DNA of 64,000 bases from a virus (Duplodnaviria > Caudoviricetes). Below, one piece after another: positions 1,893 through 11,119 of this stretch (its first letter is position 1; every line of letters starts with the position of its first letter). The stretch is from IMG/VR virus record IMGVR_UViG_3300033067_002132, positions 32,001 to 96,000 of that record. The stretch is one strand, 5' to 3'. The notes under the pieces are model-generated. The model saw nothing but the letters and a program-made list of their open reading frames with translations. It was not told the DNA's origin and made no database searches. Position numbers and translations under genes: made by a program.

Positions 1893-2876
1893 ATGATAAA
1901 TGAATTAACCAAAGAAACTCTTCAAAGAATAAAGAATAATGCGCCAAATAATCGAATTCTTACTGTAGGCGATATTATTTTAGATAGATATATTTTTGGT
2001 GAAGTAAATAGAATTTCGCCCGAAGCACCTGTACCTATTGTTGAATTTACTAAAGAAACTTATGTCCCGGGTGGCGCGGCAAATGTTGCGGCAAATATTA
2101 AAGGTTTAGGGACTTCTTCTTATTTAATTGGATTCATTGGAAATAATAAAACCGATCAAGAATCTAATGAACTTTTAAGTTCCTCGTTATATGAAAGAAA
2201 TATAGTTAATTATTTAATTAAATCCGCGCAAAAAAGAACTATACAAAAAACTCGTATAATTGGCGGACATCAACAAATAGTAAGAATCGATAAAGAAGAT
2301 AAATCTTATTATTCAGAAGAAGATTATAAATATTTAAGAGATCAACTTTTAGAGGGAGATTTTTATAGAGGATTTAATGCGGTCATTTTATCTGATTATA
2401 ATAAAAAGACTATAACCCAAAAAACATTACATGATTTAAGTAGTAAATGCGAAGCTTATAATGTATATTTAGCAATTGGCGCAAAACCCGCATCTGGATT
2501 ATATATTAAACGCCCTAATCTTTTATCATTAAATAAAAAGGAAGCTTTTGAGTTAACGGGCGAAAAAAATATAATTACAGCTATAGATATTATTAAAGAA
2601 AGAATTAATCCTTATGTATTAATTATTACATTAGGAGCGGAAGGAATGGTTTTGTATGATAAATCGTTAAATAGAATTACGAATATTCCAACTTTCGCGC
2701 AAAAAGTATTTGATGTTTCTGGCGCGGGTGATACAGTATTAGCCGCTTTTGTTGTCGCTCAAGCTTGTGGCGTAGATTCGCTACAATCGGCCCTATTCGC
2801 CACTAAGGCAGCAGGGATAGTAGTGGGGAGAGTGGGAACAGCGGCAATCGATAAAGAAGTGTTTGACGAACACTAA
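1893..2876 (+). CDS. D-glycero-beta-D-manno-heptose-7-phosphate kinase (HldE/RfaE kinase domain, PfkB family)
   Basis: GDIILDRY.FGEV.RISPEAPVP, PGGAANVA.N, SDY.K, VFDVSGAGDTV motifs. Confidence 0.9.
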   Translation: MINELTKETLQRIKNNAPNNRILTVGDIILDRYIFGEVNRISPEAPVPIVEFTKETYVPGGAANVAANIKGLGTSSYLIGFIGNNKTDQESNELLSSSLYERNIVNYLIKSAQKRTIQKTRIIGGHQQIVRIDKEDKSYYSEEDYKYLRDQLLEGDFYRGFNAVILSDYNKKTITQKTLHDLSSKCEAYNVYLAIGAKPASGLYIKRPNLLSLNKKEAFELTGEKNIITAIDIIKERINPYVLIITLGAEGMVLYDKSLNRITNIPTFAQKVFDVSGAGDTVLAAFVVAQACGVDSLQSALFATKAAGIVVGRVGTAAIDKEVFDEH

Positions 2877-2897
2877 AAACTGATATAGGCTTATTAC
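2863..2897 (+). promoter_or_regulatory. sigma70-type promoter, likely leaderless
   Basis: TTGACG-N17-TAGGCT, then 6 nt, then ATG at 2898. Confidence 0.7.
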
Positions 2898-3752
2898 ATG
2901 TTTAACATTAAAATTTATTTAGAGAGAGCGGAACAAAGCCCGATTTTAATTGATACTAAAAATTGGCTTTTTCCTGGTGGAGAGGTTGGTATTAAACTTT
3001 TAGATAATAATCTTCAATTTAAATACGCCGAATTTGATTTCGTTACTATTGATGCTCGTGTTCGTAATAGTAATGATTTATTCGCTATTGCTTTAGTGCA
3101 AAATGCGATTCAAGAATTAACCGATAAACCAATTAATCTATTTCTTCCTTATCTTCCTTATGCGCGGCAAGATCGGATTTGTGATAATGGAGAGAGCTTT
3201 AGCCTTAAAGTCGTCATTAACTATCTAAATTCGCTGAAATTCAATAGAATTACTGTTGTAGATCCTCATAGTGATGTTACTCCTGCGCTCATCGATAACG
3301 TTAAAGTAGTGACTCAATTAGAAATTATTCATAACAATAATGCTTTAAAAAATCGAATTCTTGAGTTAAAACCTATTTTAATTAGTCCAGACGCCGGGGC
3401 TAATAAGAAAACGGCAAAAATTGCCGGGTATTTCGGTCATCGTGAATTCGTCCGCGCCGATAAATTACGAAATTTAACAAATGGTGATATTTTAGAAACC
3501 ATTGTTTATAAGGATGATTTTAATGGTTTAAATGTTGCAGTTTTTGACGACATTTGCGAAAAAGGCGGTACGTTTATAGCTTTAGCGAAAATATTAAAAC
3601 AAAAAAATGTAGGAAAAATCTTATTGTTTGTTACTCATGGATTATTTTCGGGAGATATGAATTTACTATATAATTCTGGAATCGATGAGATTTGGACTAC
3701 AAATAGTTATAGAGATGATTTAGATAGTAGAATTAATATTATTAAAATTTAA
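2898..3752 (+). CDS. prs: Ribose-phosphate pyrophosphokinase-like protein (possible Adps of NARP1)
   Basis: FPGGE, LPYLPYARQDR, DPHS, SPDAGA.K, DDICEKGGTF, VTHGLFS. Confidence 0.9.
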   Translation: MFNIKIYLERAEQSPILIDTKNWLFPGGEVGIKLLDNNLQFKYAEFDFVTIDARVRNSNDLFAIALVQNAIQELTDKPINLFLPYLPYARQDRICDNGESFSLKVVINYLNSLKFNRITVVDPHSDVTPALIDNVKVVTQLEIIHNNNALKNRILELKPILISPDAGANKKTAKIAGYFGHREFVRADKLRNLTNGDILETIVYKDDFNGLNVAVFDDICEKGGTFIALAKILKQKNVGKILLFVTHGLFSGDMNLLYNSGIDEIWTTNSYRDDLDSRINIIKI

Positions 3753-4601
3753 TTGTAAATCTTTATTTATTTTACAACTATGATGGGTTAAATTTTCTTT
3801 TTCATTAACTAGGTTCCATTTTCTTTCTAGAATAGGTAGGTTATTATTTAATGCAAAGTTCTTAAGTGCAATAAAATTTTGTTTTCTACAAATTCTTAAA
3901 TAAACATAACCACGTTTAGTAAAATTGACACTAATACCATCAAAACCAATAGAATTTAATTTTTCTTTAATTTGTATTAAATAATCATGCCAGTTTTTAT
4001 GTACTTCTATTCTTATAAAAGTTACATTATTTTTTCTTTTAGAAAATGTCCCATCACCATCAATAATACCTAAAAGAAAACTTAAAAAGAAAATATCATT
4101 ATTAATATTTAATTTAATAGGTGGATTATATGTTTTCGGTAAATTTAAATCTAAACCTAATTTATTATAAATAATTTTTGAATTATAAATATCCGCACAA
4201 TTTAGAATACAAATTGATGTTTGGATATTATTTATTATTACAATTTTTGTTTTTACTTTTATATTTAATATTTTTCCTAATTTTTCTAAATGATTTTTAT
4301 CTCTATTATTTAATGTAATTTTTAATTCACCTCTGTTTTGACCAATATATCCATCAGCAAGAATAAAACCTAACCAATAATAAGAAAGAGAAGATTCTTT
4401 TGTTAAAAACTCTAATTTATAGTGATTAATATCTTTTAAAGATTTTATTTTAAATCTAGAAGCGGCGGCTTTTAATGTTTTATCTTTAATATTTAATTTT
4501 TTAGCTAATTCTTTTTTATTACCTAAAGGATATTCTTTTTTTAATAATTCTATTTTTTCTTCCGTCCATTCTATTTGAGGTTTAATATAATGTTTTATCA
4601 T
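3720..4601 (-). mobile_element. Free-standing double-motif LAGLIDADG homing endonuclease
   Basis: YWLGFILADGYI and FLLGIIDGDGTF motifs; N-terminal HTH (WTEEKIELLKKEYP); C-terminal L.RKW. Confidence 0.85.
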
Positions 4602-4701
4602 AGTCTCTATATTTATCTACACATAAAATTACATTTAAAAAGATTATATGAGAATAAATTTATATTGAAGTCCCGATAAATCTGTGATACTCTTATTAAG
4701 A

Positions 4702-4776
4702 ATGAACGTTGATGAAATTTGGACAACCGATAGTTTTCGTAATGATTTAACAAATGTAAACTTAATTAATCTATAA
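4702..4776 (+). pseudogene. Second (probably displaced) copy of the prs 3' end, as a 24-aa mini-ORF
   Basis: Translates MNVDEIWTTDSFRNDLTNVNLINL*, versus prs C-terminus IDEIWTTNSYRDDLDSRINIIKI*. Confidence 0.8.
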
Positions 4777-4781
4777 TTAAT

Positions 4782-5000
4782 ATGGAACTTAACACTATTA
4801 TTCATAAACAAAATAATCAGGCGAGTATCGTTATTCCGCCCGAAGTAATTAAAATGATCGGCGGATCTCGACGAAAAAATTTGAAAATTACCGTAAATGA
4901 AAAAGATAAAACTATCTTAATTCATAATGGTAAAAAAGTAGAAGATTTTGTTGTTCCTGTTATTCCTTACGATATTTCTAAATTTATTCCACAGAATTAA
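4782..5000 (+). CDS. AbrB/MazE-like small DNA-binding protein
   Basis: SIVIPPEVIKMIG...LKITVNE pattern. Confidence 0.5.
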   Translation: MELNTIIHKQNNQASIVIPPEVIKMIGGSRRKNLKITVNEKDKTILIHNGKKVEDFVVPVIPYDISKFIPQN

Positions 5001-5003
5001 TTT

Positions 5004-5855
5004 ATGCCTATTTTCTACGATTTTTTATTAGGGGCCGATCCTGAGTTCTATATGAGAACGAATGATGGGATTTTAGCTTCCGCAGATATTTATGAAGAAC
5101 ATGGAACAGATTTTAATGGTCGTTTAGGTCGTGATGGTGGCGGTGTTTTATTTGAAATCCGTCCTACACCTTCGGTCGATCCATTTGATTTAGTAAAAGA
5201 AATTCGATTAATTTTATCAAAAATTAAAAAATCACGAAATAGTTATTTTACTAATATTAAATCTCTTCATGCTGATACTATTGTAAAATTTGATAGATAT
5301 AACAATACCGTTGGCGGACATATTCATTTTGGATATGGAAATCTTATAGATAATGAAAATTTTCCATACTCTTTGAATGAAAATTCTATTGTTGAAAAAT
5401 TAGGTAATTATCTTGGAATTCTTCTTTATGCTATTGAATATCGATCAGAAAAACACGCTAGACGAAGAGGAGAATACGGTGGAATGTTTGATTATAGATC
5501 TAAACATTATGGAATGGAATACCGGGCGCCATCTTCTTGGTTAATTTCTCCATTAATGACGACTGTTTCATTATGTTTGGCGAAAACAGTCTTTTTTCAA
5601 ATTTTAAATCAAAATAATTTTAGTTTTATTAGAGAGTGTCCAAAAGTTAATGTTTATGATTCAGGTGCATATTATAAACAATATGATTTATATTTAAGAG
5701 ATAATTTTGATAAGATTTTTGAAAGTCTTTCTAAAATGACGTTATATCCCATGTATAAATCGTATTTAGATATTATCCCTGTATTATATAAAAATGATCG
5801 TTCTTGGTATACCGAAAAAAACGTAGATCTTTACAAATCTTGGTCAATTCTATAA
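5004..5855 (+). CDS. phiEco32-like COOH-NH2 ligase (type 2)
   Basis: LGADPEF, G.DG, EIRP.P, GGHIHFG, EYRAPSSWL. Confidence 0.85.
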   Translation: MPIFYDFLLGADPEFYMRTNDGILASADIYEEHGTDFNGRLGRDGGGVLFEIRPTPSVDPFDLVKEIRLILSKIKKSRNSYFTNIKSLHADTIVKFDRYNNTVGGHIHFGYGNLIDNENFPYSLNENSIVEKLGNYLGILLYAIEYRSEKHARRRGEYGGMFDYRSKHYGMEYRAPSSWLISPLMTTVSLCLAKTVFFQILNQNNFSFIRECPKVNVYDSGAYYKQYDLYLRDNFDKIFESLSKMTLYPMYKSYLDIIPVLYKNDRSWYTEKNVDLYKSWSIL

Positions 5856-8492: not shown

Positions 8493-8894
8493 ATGAATGA
8501 TCCATATACGAATACAGATTTTTGCGTCCAAAGATTAATTAAATATTATAAAGAACACGGTAATCTTATTGTAGCTTTTGATTGGGACGATACTTGCCAT
8601 GATTGGCACAATAAAAGTTTTAGATATCCCCGAGTTATCGAATTACTTAAACGTTGTAATAAGCATAATTTCAGATTAATTCCTTATACTGCCGCGACAC
8701 TTGACAGATACGAAAAAATCCGTCAAGATATAGCTTCTATTGGCATATACGCCGAAGAAATTAATAAAAACCCTGTAGAATTGGTTGGAAATAACGGAAA
8801 AATTTATTATAATATTCTTTTAGATGACCGTGCGGGACTTGGACAAGCGGTAGAGATTTTAGAAACAACTTTAGATATTATTGAGAAGAGTTAA
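8493..8894 (+). CDS. HAD-superfamily hydrolase-like phage protein
   Basis: AFDWDDT motif I and LDDRAG motif IV. Confidence 0.7.
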   Translation: MNDPYTNTDFCVQRLIKYYKEHGNLIVAFDWDDTCHDWHNKSFRYPRVIELLKRCNKHNFRLIPYTAATLDRYEKIRQDIASIGIYAEEINKNPVELVGNNGKIYYNILLDDRAGLGQAVEILETTLDIIEKS

Positions 8895-9510
8895 TTAAAT
8901 TAGATTTAGTAATTCTACAATTTATACCATTAAATATATAACTCTTTTTAAGATTATCTTTTTGCCATAATGGCTGCATATTCTTGTAATGAAAACATAT
9001 TCTTTGATTTTCTTCTTTAGATAAATCAAAATCACAACAAGGGCGAATATGATCAATATGCCATTTATTTTCGCCTACACCATAATTATCCCATGACATT
9101 CCTTCAATAAATAAAGATTCTAAATATTTTTTAAATTCTATAAATGAACATCCTAATAAATTTTGTGTATGATCAGATTTATAACCATCAATAATTACAT
9201 GATTTATTCTACGTCGTAAATTTCGTTTAATTTTAAAAATAGGATTATTTTTATTTTTAATTTCCCAATTGCGTTTATGATTTTTAATTTTTTCTTTATT
9301 CGTCTTTCTATATTTTAAATCATATTCTGCTTTCTTTTCTTTATTTTTTATTGTATATTCTCTATTTTTTATAGAAATTTTTTCTTTATTTTTATCTCGA
9401 TATTCTTTTCTACATGTAAAGCACATTAAATTCATTTTATCTTTTTGTTTATTATCTAATCCAAACTCAGACAATTCTTTATTCTTTTTACATCGACAAC
9501 AAATTTTCAT
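8878..9510 (-). mobile_element. HNH/endoVII-like homing endonuclease
   Basis: N-terminal CxxC pairs; WHIDHIRPC..FDL..EENQ..CFHY.N.QPLW..DN..K. Confidence 0.8.
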
Positions 9511-9590
9511 AAACTATATTACACTATGATCCGTACTATAGGGACCTAAAAACTTGACAAATCATTTTTCTCTGATATCATATACAAATC

Positions 9591-11078: not shown

Positions 11079-11119
11079 TTCTTGACAAAACATATAAAAA
11101 GATTATAATATCAAAAAAT

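What the first reader, a model, noticed from the sequence alone, without database searches (positions are those of the whole stretch)
3681..4782. Intron-less homing cassette that rebuilds its target gene and re-supplies promoter and start codon
The prs 3' end occurs twice, on either side of the antisense LAGLIDADG gene: in-frame IDEIWTTNSYRDDL (3681-3752) and orphan VDEIWTTDSFRNDL (4708-4776), with many synonymous differences. The orphan copy has an ATG (4702) 8 nt after a promoter TTGAAG-N17-TACTCT and stops 5 nt before the next gene. Inference: the element inserted into prs, brought a recoded cleavage-resistant tail, and uses the displaced tail as a leader ORF that keeps the downstream ligase operon expressed.
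Basis: partly seen in the sequence, partly recalled or inferred. Interest (0 to 1): 0.75.

Follow-up and report, generated by a model that had tools for sequence, protein, structure and literature searches.

The report
Homing endonuclease scar behind phage prs
A selfish DNA-cutting enzyme gene sits at the end of a phage NAD-rescue gene (prs-like) and is followed by a stranded second copy of that gene's last 35 codons from a different phage lineage; this recombination scar is of a kind known from fungal mitochondria, and there is no good evidence that the stranded copy works as a promoter or leader.

Summary
An intact prs-like gene (2898-3752) is overlapped tail-to-tail by a free-standing two-motif LAGLIDADG endonuclease gene (3720-4601, minus strand). 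Beyond that gene's 5' flank lies an open 35-codon remnant of a second prs tail (4669-4776), which ends 5 nt before the next gene.

Homologues of this endonuclease sit at the prs 3' end in about a dozen unrelated phage contigs. None of them carries an orphan, and neither do some 40 endonuclease-free prs loci. The orphan resembles a different prs lineage (P0007/P0024 type) more than it resembles the in-frame copy.

Against the one close relative (L003), nucleotide identity is 81% in the prs body. It rises to 96% over the last 38 nt of prs plus the endonuclease 3' end.

Best reading: this is an intronless-homing or recombination scar that joins two phage lineages at the endonuclease. It is the phage counterpart of fungal mitochondrial mobile ORFs that carry a foreign C-terminus.

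The "re-supplied promoter, start codon and leader ORF" part is not supported. The promoter match is 7/12, whereas the phage's consensus promoters score 11-12/12, and nothing shows conservation or expression.

The scan has reported similar scars on other phage DNA (nadV, helicase, ligase). This is a new member of a known kind, of moderate interest.

The parts
2898..3752 (+). Intact prs-like gene (PRPP-synthetase family; possibly the Adps enzyme of the NARP1 NAD+-rebuilding pathway), 284 aa
   Evidence: Pfam Pribosyl_synth and Pribosyltran_N. PHROG 619, E=4e-76. Covers positions 8-279 of 285 of the family HMM. A NAMPT-like gene lies at window ~10.15-11.0 kb.
3648..3752 (+). In-frame copy of the duplicated prs C-terminal segment (SGDMNLLYNSGIDEIWTTNSYRDDLDSRINIIKI*)
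   Evidence: The part before the IDEIW motif matches the body's own clade, P0003/P0004/P0014.
3715..3791 (.). Block that is 96% identical (74/77) to relative L003: the last ~12 prs codons plus the endonuclease 3' end. This is the most recently exchanged tract.
   Evidence: Change-point analysis: 81% identity to its left, permutation 8/1000. pfkB baseline is 84%.
3720..4601 (-). Free-standing single-chain LAGLIDADG homing endonuclease gene, 293 aa, with an N-terminal helix-rich extension and two LAGLIDADG motifs (LGFILADGY, LLGIIDGDG)
   Evidence: Pfam LAGLIDADG_3, E=2e-9. Family profile matches PDB 2dch, I-AniI and I-HjeMI across both domains. Catalytic Asp columns are invariant in 25 homologues. 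Single copy in the 193.7-kb genome.
3720..3752 (.). 33-nt antisense overlap of the prs end and the endonuclease end. It lies in the non-conserved C-terminal extension of the endonuclease.
   Evidence: The conserved endonuclease core ends at LPILERKW, and the tails beyond it vary from 0 to ~35 aa. Overlaps of 45, 9 and 39 nt occur in L004, L006 and L007.
4602..4664 (-). Endonuclease 5' flank with a conserved -10-like TATAAT (reverse complement of 4643-4648). It is alignable with the same flank in L004 up to about 4660, which marks the right end of the shared cassette.
   Evidence: Alignment A4 and direct reading of the sequence.
4660..4669 (.). Non-homologous junction between the endonuclease flank and the interior of a second prs allele (at about family-HMM position 246, the FSKG codons)
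   Evidence: The position is inferred from where each similarity ends.
4669..4776 (+). Orphan prs tail: open 35-codon remnant plus stop (SPDKSVILLLRMNVDEIWTTDSFRNDLTNVNLINL*)
   Evidence: Tail HMM E=1.1e-7. Closest to the P0007/P0024 lineage, including Asn in place of the near-invariant Gly before IDEIW. The stop lies 5 nt before the next gene, as tight as in endonuclease-free relatives (5, -4, 55 and 16 nt).
4665..4693 (+).
   Evidence: 7/12 to consensus, so not listed by the scan at its 9/12 threshold. The phage's two best-scoring promoters in the scanned 12 kb score 11-12/12; five near-consensus sites across the window are listed.
4702..4776 (+). 24-codon ATG-initiated ORF inside the orphan (candidate leader ORF, untested)
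   Evidence: Sequence only. Shine-Dalgarno-like motifs are rare in this phage (5 of 56 ORFs), so the start context is uninformative.
4782..5855 (+). Downstream genes: a 72-aa protein of unknown family and a phiEco32-type COOH-NH2 ligase. GATase, ATP-grasp and NADAR genes follow.
   Evidence: The 72-aa protein has no homologue in the 5.8-billion-protein search. A 71-aa gene plus ligase pair also occurs in L004.

Best explanation
A free-standing LAGLIDADG homing endonuclease gene (HEG) occupies the site immediately behind a phage prs-like gene, on the opposite strand. Its family is found repeatedly at that site in other phages.

The orphan prs tail on its far side is the scar of an exchange between two diverged phage lineages. 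On the left, the join is homologous, inside or upstream of prs.

The result is one complete, working prs, the HEG, and then the last 35 codons of the other prs still abutting its own downstream gene. This is what one-sided intronless homing, or HEG-stimulated recombination, is expected to leave. The orphan is most simply a young, not yet decayed remnant.

Shown: the anatomy, the family-to-locus association, the different lineage of the two tails, and the identity gradient toward the HEG.

Inferred: that cleavage by this enzyme drove the event, where it cuts, and which side was resident. I favour orphan plus downstream genes as resident, at about 60:40.
For: 1. The duplication is real and specific: E=1.1e-7 to the tail HMM.
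2. The HEG has both LAGLIDADG motifs, with invariant catalytic Asp columns. No intron is present.
3. HEG homologues at 41-65% identity lie at the prs 3' end in L004/5, L006 and L007/8 (convergent and overlapping) and in L009/10 and L201 (co-directional). More distant ones lie near prs in L011, L090, L093, L095 and L102. The downstream genes differ among these loci. The distribution is patchy: the close prs relatives L206, L207, L208 and L211 lack the HEG.
4. None of ~12 HEG-linked and ~40 HEG-free prs loci has an orphan. It is therefore an event-specific scar.
5. The orphan is nearer the P0007/P0024 lineage than the in-frame copy, at both protein and DNA level, and its residues all fall within natural family variation. 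Both copies therefore evolved under selection in separate genomes.
6. Identity to L003 is 84% in pfkB, 63-81% in prs, and 96% in the last 77 nt next to the HEG, with permutation p about 0.008.
7. The orphan's stop is 5 nt from the next ATG, matching the tight packing behind prs in HEG-free relatives.
8. Precedents: mitochondrial mobile endonuclease ORFs that carry a foreign C-terminus and leave the native one downstream (PMC3630166); one-sided illegitimate double-strand-break repair during T4 homing (PMC2988022).
Against: - No close HEG-free relative was found, so the empty site and the direction of transfer are not observed.
- The relative L003 ends 39 nt past prs. Whether it also carries the orphan is unknown, and the 96% block rests on only 77 nt, part of it dual-coding.
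- One HEG homologue (L089, 49% identity) is not next to prs, so the family is not strictly locus-bound.
- HEG-plus and HEG-minus alleles show no clear distinguishing bases in the conserved IDEIWTT codons, so a target site cannot be named.
- Cleavage activity is untested.
Confidence: 0.72

Rival explanations
1. The cassette brought a recoded, cleavage-immune tail, and the displaced native tail has been put to use: a promoter at 4665-4693 and the ATG at 4702 drive a 24-codon leader ORF whose translation, ending 5 nt before the next gene, keeps the downstream ligase operon expressed.
For: The remnant's frame is open with an in-frame ATG, and its stop is 5 nt from the next start. An extended -10-like TGtGATACT lies 10 nt before the ATG. 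This resembles the short or absent leaders of the phage's consensus promoters, whose -10 ends 6-9 nt before the ATG. L004 and L006 carry consensus promoters between the HEG and the downstream gene.
Against: The promoter match is 7/12, below the scan threshold, in sequence where such matches are commoner in shuffles than in the real DNA. Near-consensus sites matching a strict pattern number only 5 in 64 kb. The open frame and the tight stop are simply inherited from the former coding sequence. No second genome carries the orphan, so selection on it cannot be tested. Other HEG-bearing loci manage without any orphan. Read-through from the prs operon across the antisense HEG would also express the downstream genes.
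Confidence: 0.12
2. The orphan is not the resident gene's old tail. It is baggage: a scar made in an earlier host, or DNA on the donor's side (orphan plus the 72-aa gene and ligase operon). The prs body is the resident part.
For: The in-frame copy up to NSYRDDL matches the clade of the gene's own body, and only the last ~12 codons are in the 96% block. The gene order around prs differs widely among relatives: in L004 the ligase module follows NAMPT. The right-hand side could therefore be the imported part.
Against: This is the same event viewed from the other side. It needs a longer imported tract, and no evidence favours it over the mirror reading. pfkB-prs-HEG synteny is shared with L003, but what lies downstream in L003 is unknown.
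Confidence: 0.13
3. Assembly artefact: two co-occurring strains (one with the HEG, one without) were mis-joined in the metagenome assembly.
For: The record is a metagenome-derived virus contig. The right-hand junction has no independent confirmation.
Against: The two tails share no exact repeat of k-mer length. The junction does not fall in a repeated sequence. The left junction is confirmed in an independent sample. The contig is rated complete.
Confidence: 0.03

Closest known systems
Mobile endonuclease ORFs (mORFs) of fungal mitochondria that create gene hybrids: Allomyces macrogynus atp6; Glomus sp. atp6, atp9, cox2, nad3; Rhizopus atp9; Mortierella cox2 (PMC3630166)
   Same: A LAGLIDADG (or GIY-YIG) ORF sits in the 3' end of a conserved gene. 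An in-frame C-terminus keeps the gene whole, and a second, diverged C-terminus from another lineage lies just downstream of the endonuclease. The two copies differ mostly by changes compatible with function.
   Different: This case is in a phage, not an organelle. The endonuclease is on the opposite strand and overlaps the gene end antisense; it is not fused in frame or co-directional. Only the last ~12 codons are demonstrably linked to the endonuclease. Most relatives carrying the same endonuclease have no duplicate.
[quoted passage not shown]
   Same: A free-standing endonuclease gene lies between or at the end of conserved genes and is sporadically present among relatives. Flanking DNA is co-converted, giving an identity gradient toward the nuclease gene. 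Illegitimate joins arise when one flank lacks homology.
   Different: The T4 enzymes are GIY-YIG or HNH, not LAGLIDADG. No natural T4-family case with a retained duplicate gene end was found in the papers read. Cleavage was not tested here.
Nuclease genes at boundaries of genetic exchange between phages (ICP1 study, PMC10448857)
   Same: The endonuclease marks a switch in sequence relatedness between otherwise related phages.
   Different: That study describes mosaic boundaries, not a stranded duplicate of the target gene's end, and involves different nuclease families.

Membership tests
LAGLIDADG homing endonucleases (single-chain, two-motif) | Two LAGLIDADG motifs, each with a catalytic acidic residue, in one polypeptide with two alpha-beta-beta-alpha-beta-beta-alpha domains | tested here: met
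   The motifs LGFILADGY and LLGIIDGDG are present. D83 and D181/D183 are invariant in 25 homologues. Pfam LAGLIDADG_3, E=2e-9. The profile aligns to 2dch, I-AniI and I-HjeMI over residues ~74-255. The fold itself was not modelled.
LAGLIDADG homing endonucleases (single-chain, two-motif) | Site-specific cleavage of the endonuclease-free allele | not testable with these tools
   Needs enzyme and substrates. Allele comparison gave no clear target-site signature.
Free-standing HEG / intronless homing element | Not embedded in an intron or intein | tested here: met
   No Rfam family hit at E<=1 in 2800-5200. The ORF is on the strand opposite prs, and prs is uninterrupted.
Free-standing HEG / intronless homing element | Sporadic presence at a fixed locus among related genomes | tested here: met
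   Present behind prs in the window, L003, L004/5, L006, L007/8, L009/10 and L201. Absent in L001, L206-L208, L211 and 34 of 36 IMG/VR prs loci. Exception: L089 is not at prs.
Free-standing HEG / intronless homing element | Co-conversion of flanking DNA (higher relatedness next to the HEG) | tested here: inconclusive
   96% against 81% identity to L003, p about 0.008. This rests on only 77 nt, and the relative's contig ends there.
mORF-type gene hybrid (endonuclease plus foreign C-terminus plus stranded native C-terminus) | Two C-terminal copies flank the endonuclease; the upstream one is in frame with the gene | tested here: met
mORF-type gene hybrid (endonuclease plus foreign C-terminus plus stranded native C-terminus) | The downstream copy matches the endonuclease-free close relative (native); the upstream copy is foreign | tested here: inconclusive
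   No close endonuclease-free relative exists in the collections. The two copies belong to different lineages, but polarity is unresolved. The part of the in-frame copy before the IDEIW motif looks native to the body.
PRPP synthetase family / NARP1 Adps | PRPS fold with the family's conserved residues, paired with a NAMPT-like Namat gene | tested here: inconclusive
Pfam and PHROG matches to ribose-phosphate pyrophosphokinase. A NAMPT-like gene lies 6.4 kb downstream. Substrate (ribose-5-phosphate or ADP-ribose) was not tested.

The most novel reading that the evidence does not exclude
Phage homing-endonuclease cassettes may be self-compensating. Besides supplying a replacement gene end, they would convert the stranded native end into a short translated leader with its own near-leaderless promoter, restoring transcription and translational coupling of the operon they interrupt. 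The orphan would then be a maintained functional part, not debris.
Probability: 0.1. Interest if true: 0.6.

Novelty: new member of a known kind. Interest (0 to 1): 0.36.

Why it matters
This is a cleanly readable natural footprint of how a free-standing homing endonuclease crosses between diverged phage lineages when only one flank is homologous. The target gene stays whole, and the other lineage's gene end is left as a datable scar.

It also defines a LAGLIDADG family that favours the 3' end of phage prs-like genes. These genes probably belong, with NAMPT, to an NAD+-rebuilding counter-defence module, and several endonuclease types cluster around both genes. Selfish nucleases may therefore be a main route by which such counter-defence genes are shuffled among phages.

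Practically, chimeric gene ends like this one can mislead phylogenies and annotation of prs and Adps. The enzyme and its conserved target are also a ready candidate for a new meganuclease specificity.

Tried and rejected
- Close relatives. Nucleotide search of cultured phages found nothing. Protein-guided scans of IMG/VR with prs and with the ligase found only distant loci or none. The 72-aa downstream protein has no homologue at all.
- Orphans elsewhere. I searched ~210 fetched loci with a tail HMM for further orphan tails. Only the window has one.
- Target site. I compared IDEIWTT-region codons of HEG-plus and HEG-minus alleles. No consistent discriminating positions emerged.
- L004 similarity. 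I considered that the ATATGGACTAC at the start of the gene downstream of the HEG in L004 might be a mini-remnant of the prs ATTTGGACTAC. The following codons are unrelated, so I treat it as chance or microhomology.
- Cassette-borne promoter. I considered that the HEG cassette carries an outward promoter, because L004 and L006 have TTGACA-N17-TATACT-N6-ATG next to the HEG. These lie at different distances from the HEG and belong to the phages' general promoter class, so they are probably resident.
- Short tail as signature. I considered that the truncated prs tail (ending ...IKI) marks this HEG. Short tails also occur without it (L209) or with a different NUMOD4 gene (L210).
- Designed overlap. 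I considered that the antisense overlap is a designed dual-coding feature. It lies in the non-conserved C-terminal extension of the endonuclease, so it is probably incidental.
Full report
**Setting.** The window is bases 32001-96000 of a 193,745-bp IMG/VR virus record rated complete. It is AT-rich and tightly packed. Around the finding the plus strand carries:
- a pfkB-family kinase (1893-2876);
- a prs-like gene (2898-3752);
- a 72-aa gene of unknown family (4782-5000);
- a phiEco32-type COOH-NH2 ligase, a class-II amidotransferase, an ATP-grasp protein and NADAR.

A NAMPT-like gene follows at about 10.15 kb. PRPS-like plus NAMPT-like genes are the signature of the phage NARP1 NAD+-rebuilding pathway (papers listed). 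I did not test which substrate this enzyme uses, so I call it prs-like.

**Checking the observation.**
- The prs-like ORF ends ...GIDEIWTTNSYRDDLDSRINIIKI* at 3752.
- A 293-aa ORF on the minus strand (3720-4601) overlaps that end by 33 nt. It is a LAGLIDADG protein (Pfam LAGLIDADG_3, E=2e-9; PHROG 4645 'endonuclease').
- Beyond its start lies ...MNVDEIWTTDSFRNDLTNVNLINL*, whose stop is 5 nt before the next gene.
- In the 14-codon core the copies differ at 10 of 42 nt: four synonymous codon changes and four conservative replacements.

I built an HMM from the C-terminal region of 119 family members and searched six-frame translations of every locus fetched. The window's stop-to-stop frame 4669-4773 scored E=1.1e-7 over HMM positions 11-43, and it matched positions 246-276 of the full-length prs HMM.

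The copies share no exact repeat long enough to cause a mis-assembly. The left junction recurs in an independent sample.

**The endonuclease.**
- Twenty-five homologues align with both LAGLIDADG motifs and invariant acidic residues.
- The family profile matches solved single-chain enzymes (2dch, I-AniI, I-HjeMI) across both domains.
- No intron or other Rfam RNA is present, and prs is uninterrupted. The gene is therefore free-standing.
- Its conserved core ends at LPILERKW. The ~30 residues beyond vary in length and sequence among homologues, so the antisense overlap with prs looks like compact packing and not a designed dual-coding segment.

**Where the family lives.**
- The closest homologues I could place all sit convergent to, and overlapping, the 3' end of a prs gene: P0122 (65% identity), P0129 and P0138. 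Their contigs are otherwise different and the downstream genes differ: a nucleoside deoxyribosyltransferase-like gene, a 79-aa ORF, and a radical-SAM gene.
- More distant members lie directly behind prs on the same strand (L009/L010, L201) or close to prs or a prs fragment (L011, L090, L093, L095, L102).
- One homologue (L089, 49% identity) sits next to a DNA methyltransferase instead, so the association is strong but not absolute.
- Close prs relatives without the endonuclease exist (L206, L207, L208, L211). In them the next gene begins 5, -4, 55 or 16 nt after the prs stop.

This patchy presence at a fixed site is the normal behaviour of a homing endonuclease gene.

**The orphan is an event-specific scar.** No other endonuclease-linked locus carries a second tail, and none of about 40 endonuclease-free prs loci does. 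It also shows that the orphan is not a regular component of the mobile unit.

**The two tails come from different lineages.**
- The orphan is nearer to the P0007/P0024 type. It shares Asn in place of the near-invariant Gly before I/VDEIW, then SFR.DLT.VN.
- At the DNA level it is also more like the P0007 tail than like the in-frame copy.
- Every orphan residue in the core falls within natural family variation. Most of the divergence therefore accumulated while both tails were parts of working genes in separate genomes.
- The in-frame copy's part before the IDEIW motif (FSGDMNLLY) matches the clade of the gene's own body (P0003, P0004, P0014). Its last residues (DSRINIIKI) resemble other lineages.

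**Evidence for recent exchange next to the endonuclease.** The only close relative is a 1470-bp contig (L003) with the same pfkB-prs order (pfkB 88% amino-acid identity). It ends 39 nt into the endonuclease's 3' end. Nucleotide identity to the window is:

| Segment | Identity to L003 |
|---|---|
| pfkB | 84% |
| prs, first 145 nt | 63% |
| prs 3043-3714 | 81% |
| 3715-3791 | 96% (74/77) |

A change-point scan places the step at 3715, and only 8 of 1000 permutations do as well. Third-codon-position identity rises from 62% to 16/18.

This fits co-conversion tracts around a homing endonuclease. However, it rests on 77 nt, part of which codes on both strands, so I rate it suggestive.

**The right-hand junction.** The endonuclease's 5' flank is alignable with that of L004 up to about 4660, including a conserved TATAAT on the endonuclease strand (reverse complement of 4643-4648). 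The prs-like frame opens at 4669. The join between cassette and second prs allele therefore lies within about 10 nt and shows no homology. It is an illegitimate join.

**Mechanism proposed.** Two diverged phages recombined at this locus, most likely after a double-strand break made by the endonuclease in a prs allele lacking it.
- On the left, repair used prs homology.
- On the right, the partner had different genes behind the endonuclease, so the end was joined without homology inside the other prs.
- The product keeps one complete prs. The other allele's last 35 codons remain attached to their own downstream gene.

One-sided homing with illegitimate junctions has been shown experimentally in T4 (Parker et al. 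1999, as reviewed in PMC2988022). The same architecture is well documented for mitochondrial mobile endonuclease ORFs: endonuclease, a foreign C-terminus in frame, and the native C-terminus stranded downstream (Allomyces atp6; Glomus atp6, atp9, cox2 and nad3; PMC3630166).

Which side was resident cannot be decided without an endonuclease-free close relative. The tight 5-nt spacing between orphan and next gene argues that those two have always been neighbours.

**The promoter, start codon and leader ORF.**
- TTGAAG-N17-TACTCT matches the consensus at 7 of 12 positions. The scan lists only matches of 9/12 or better, and even at that level it finds fewer in the real sequence than in shuffles (62 against 75).
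- The phage's two best promoters in the scanned 12 kb are near-perfect (TTGACA-16-TATAAT at 11082; TTGACA-16-TATCAT with TG at 9554). A strict near-consensus pattern finds only five sites in 64 kb.
- An extended -10-like TGtGATACT at 4683-4691 is a slightly better candidate. The phage's promoters do sit 6-9 nt before start codons. That is not evidence for this site.
- Shine-Dalgarno-like motifs are rare (5 of 56 ORFs), so the ATG context says nothing.
- The open frame and the close stop are inherited properties of a former gene end.
- Other endonuclease-bearing loci have no orphan.

I therefore give the exaptation idea about 0.1.

**Comparison with earlier scan notes.** The scan has already reported endonuclease-plus-orphan configurations on other phage DNA: behind nadV, in a helicase 3' end, and at a ligase 5' end. 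I reached the mitochondrial comparison from the literature before reading those notes. They agree with this reading but are not independent evidence.

**Verdict.** The polarity and the extent of the imported tail are unresolved, and the regulatory exaptation is unsupported. This is a new, clean phage member of a known kind of event.

Noticed in passing
window 8878-9590: A 210-aa HNH-motif gene on the minus strand (8878-9510) overlaps the end of a plus-strand 133-aa gene by 17 nt. It sits directly upstream of a near-consensus promoter (TTGACA-16-TATCAT with TG, at 9554) and the NAMPT-like gene start (~9590). L004 has a LAGLIDADG gene at the same relative place before NAMPT, and L206 and L207 have an unannotated ~260-aa minus-strand gene there. 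Both genes of the putative NAD+-rebuilding pair therefore appear to be endonuclease hotspots.
   Followed up: partly
P0026 (490 aa, Logan contig): A prs homologue whose called ORF carries an N-terminal LEM-3-like GIY-YIG nuclease domain (Pfam E=8e-12). This is either a fusion or a GIY-YIG endonuclease gene read through into prs.
   Followed up: partly
L090:618-2398: A LAGLIDADG homologue (256 aa) is followed on the same strand by only the C-terminal half of a prs (family-HMM positions 143-279, 136-aa ORF overlapping the endonuclease end), and then by a GIY-YIG gene. No N-terminal prs half lies upstream. This is a truncated or fractured prs.
   Followed up: partly
L210:3858-4415: A NUMOD4-domain gene (185 aa), a different endonuclease type, starts at the very stop codon of a prs whose tail is short (...RINVFKL*).
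   Followed up: no
window 2898-3043 vs L003: The first ~145 nt of prs are only 63% identical to the close relative L003. The upstream pfkB is 84% identical and the rest of prs 81%. This is a second sharp relatedness boundary inside the gene (strongest change point, 0/500 permutations).
   Followed up: partly
window 9554, 11082, 43414; L004:5931; L006:3351: Near-consensus sigma-70-type promoters in these phages end 6-9 nt before the ATG of the gene they precede. Shine-Dalgarno-like motifs are rare (5 of 56 ORFs). Many transcripts may be leaderless or nearly so.
   Followed up: partly
L004:5897-5910 (minus strand): The gene downstream of the endonuclease in L004 begins ATATGGACTAC, which is 10/11 identical to the prs core ATTTGGACTAC. 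This could be chance or a microhomology used in joining.
   Followed up: no
L089:2049-4986: A 49%-identical homologue of the endonuclease lies next to a DNA methyltransferase gene and a second, larger LAGLIDADG-like ORF, not next to prs. This may be a case of target switching within the family.
   Followed up: no
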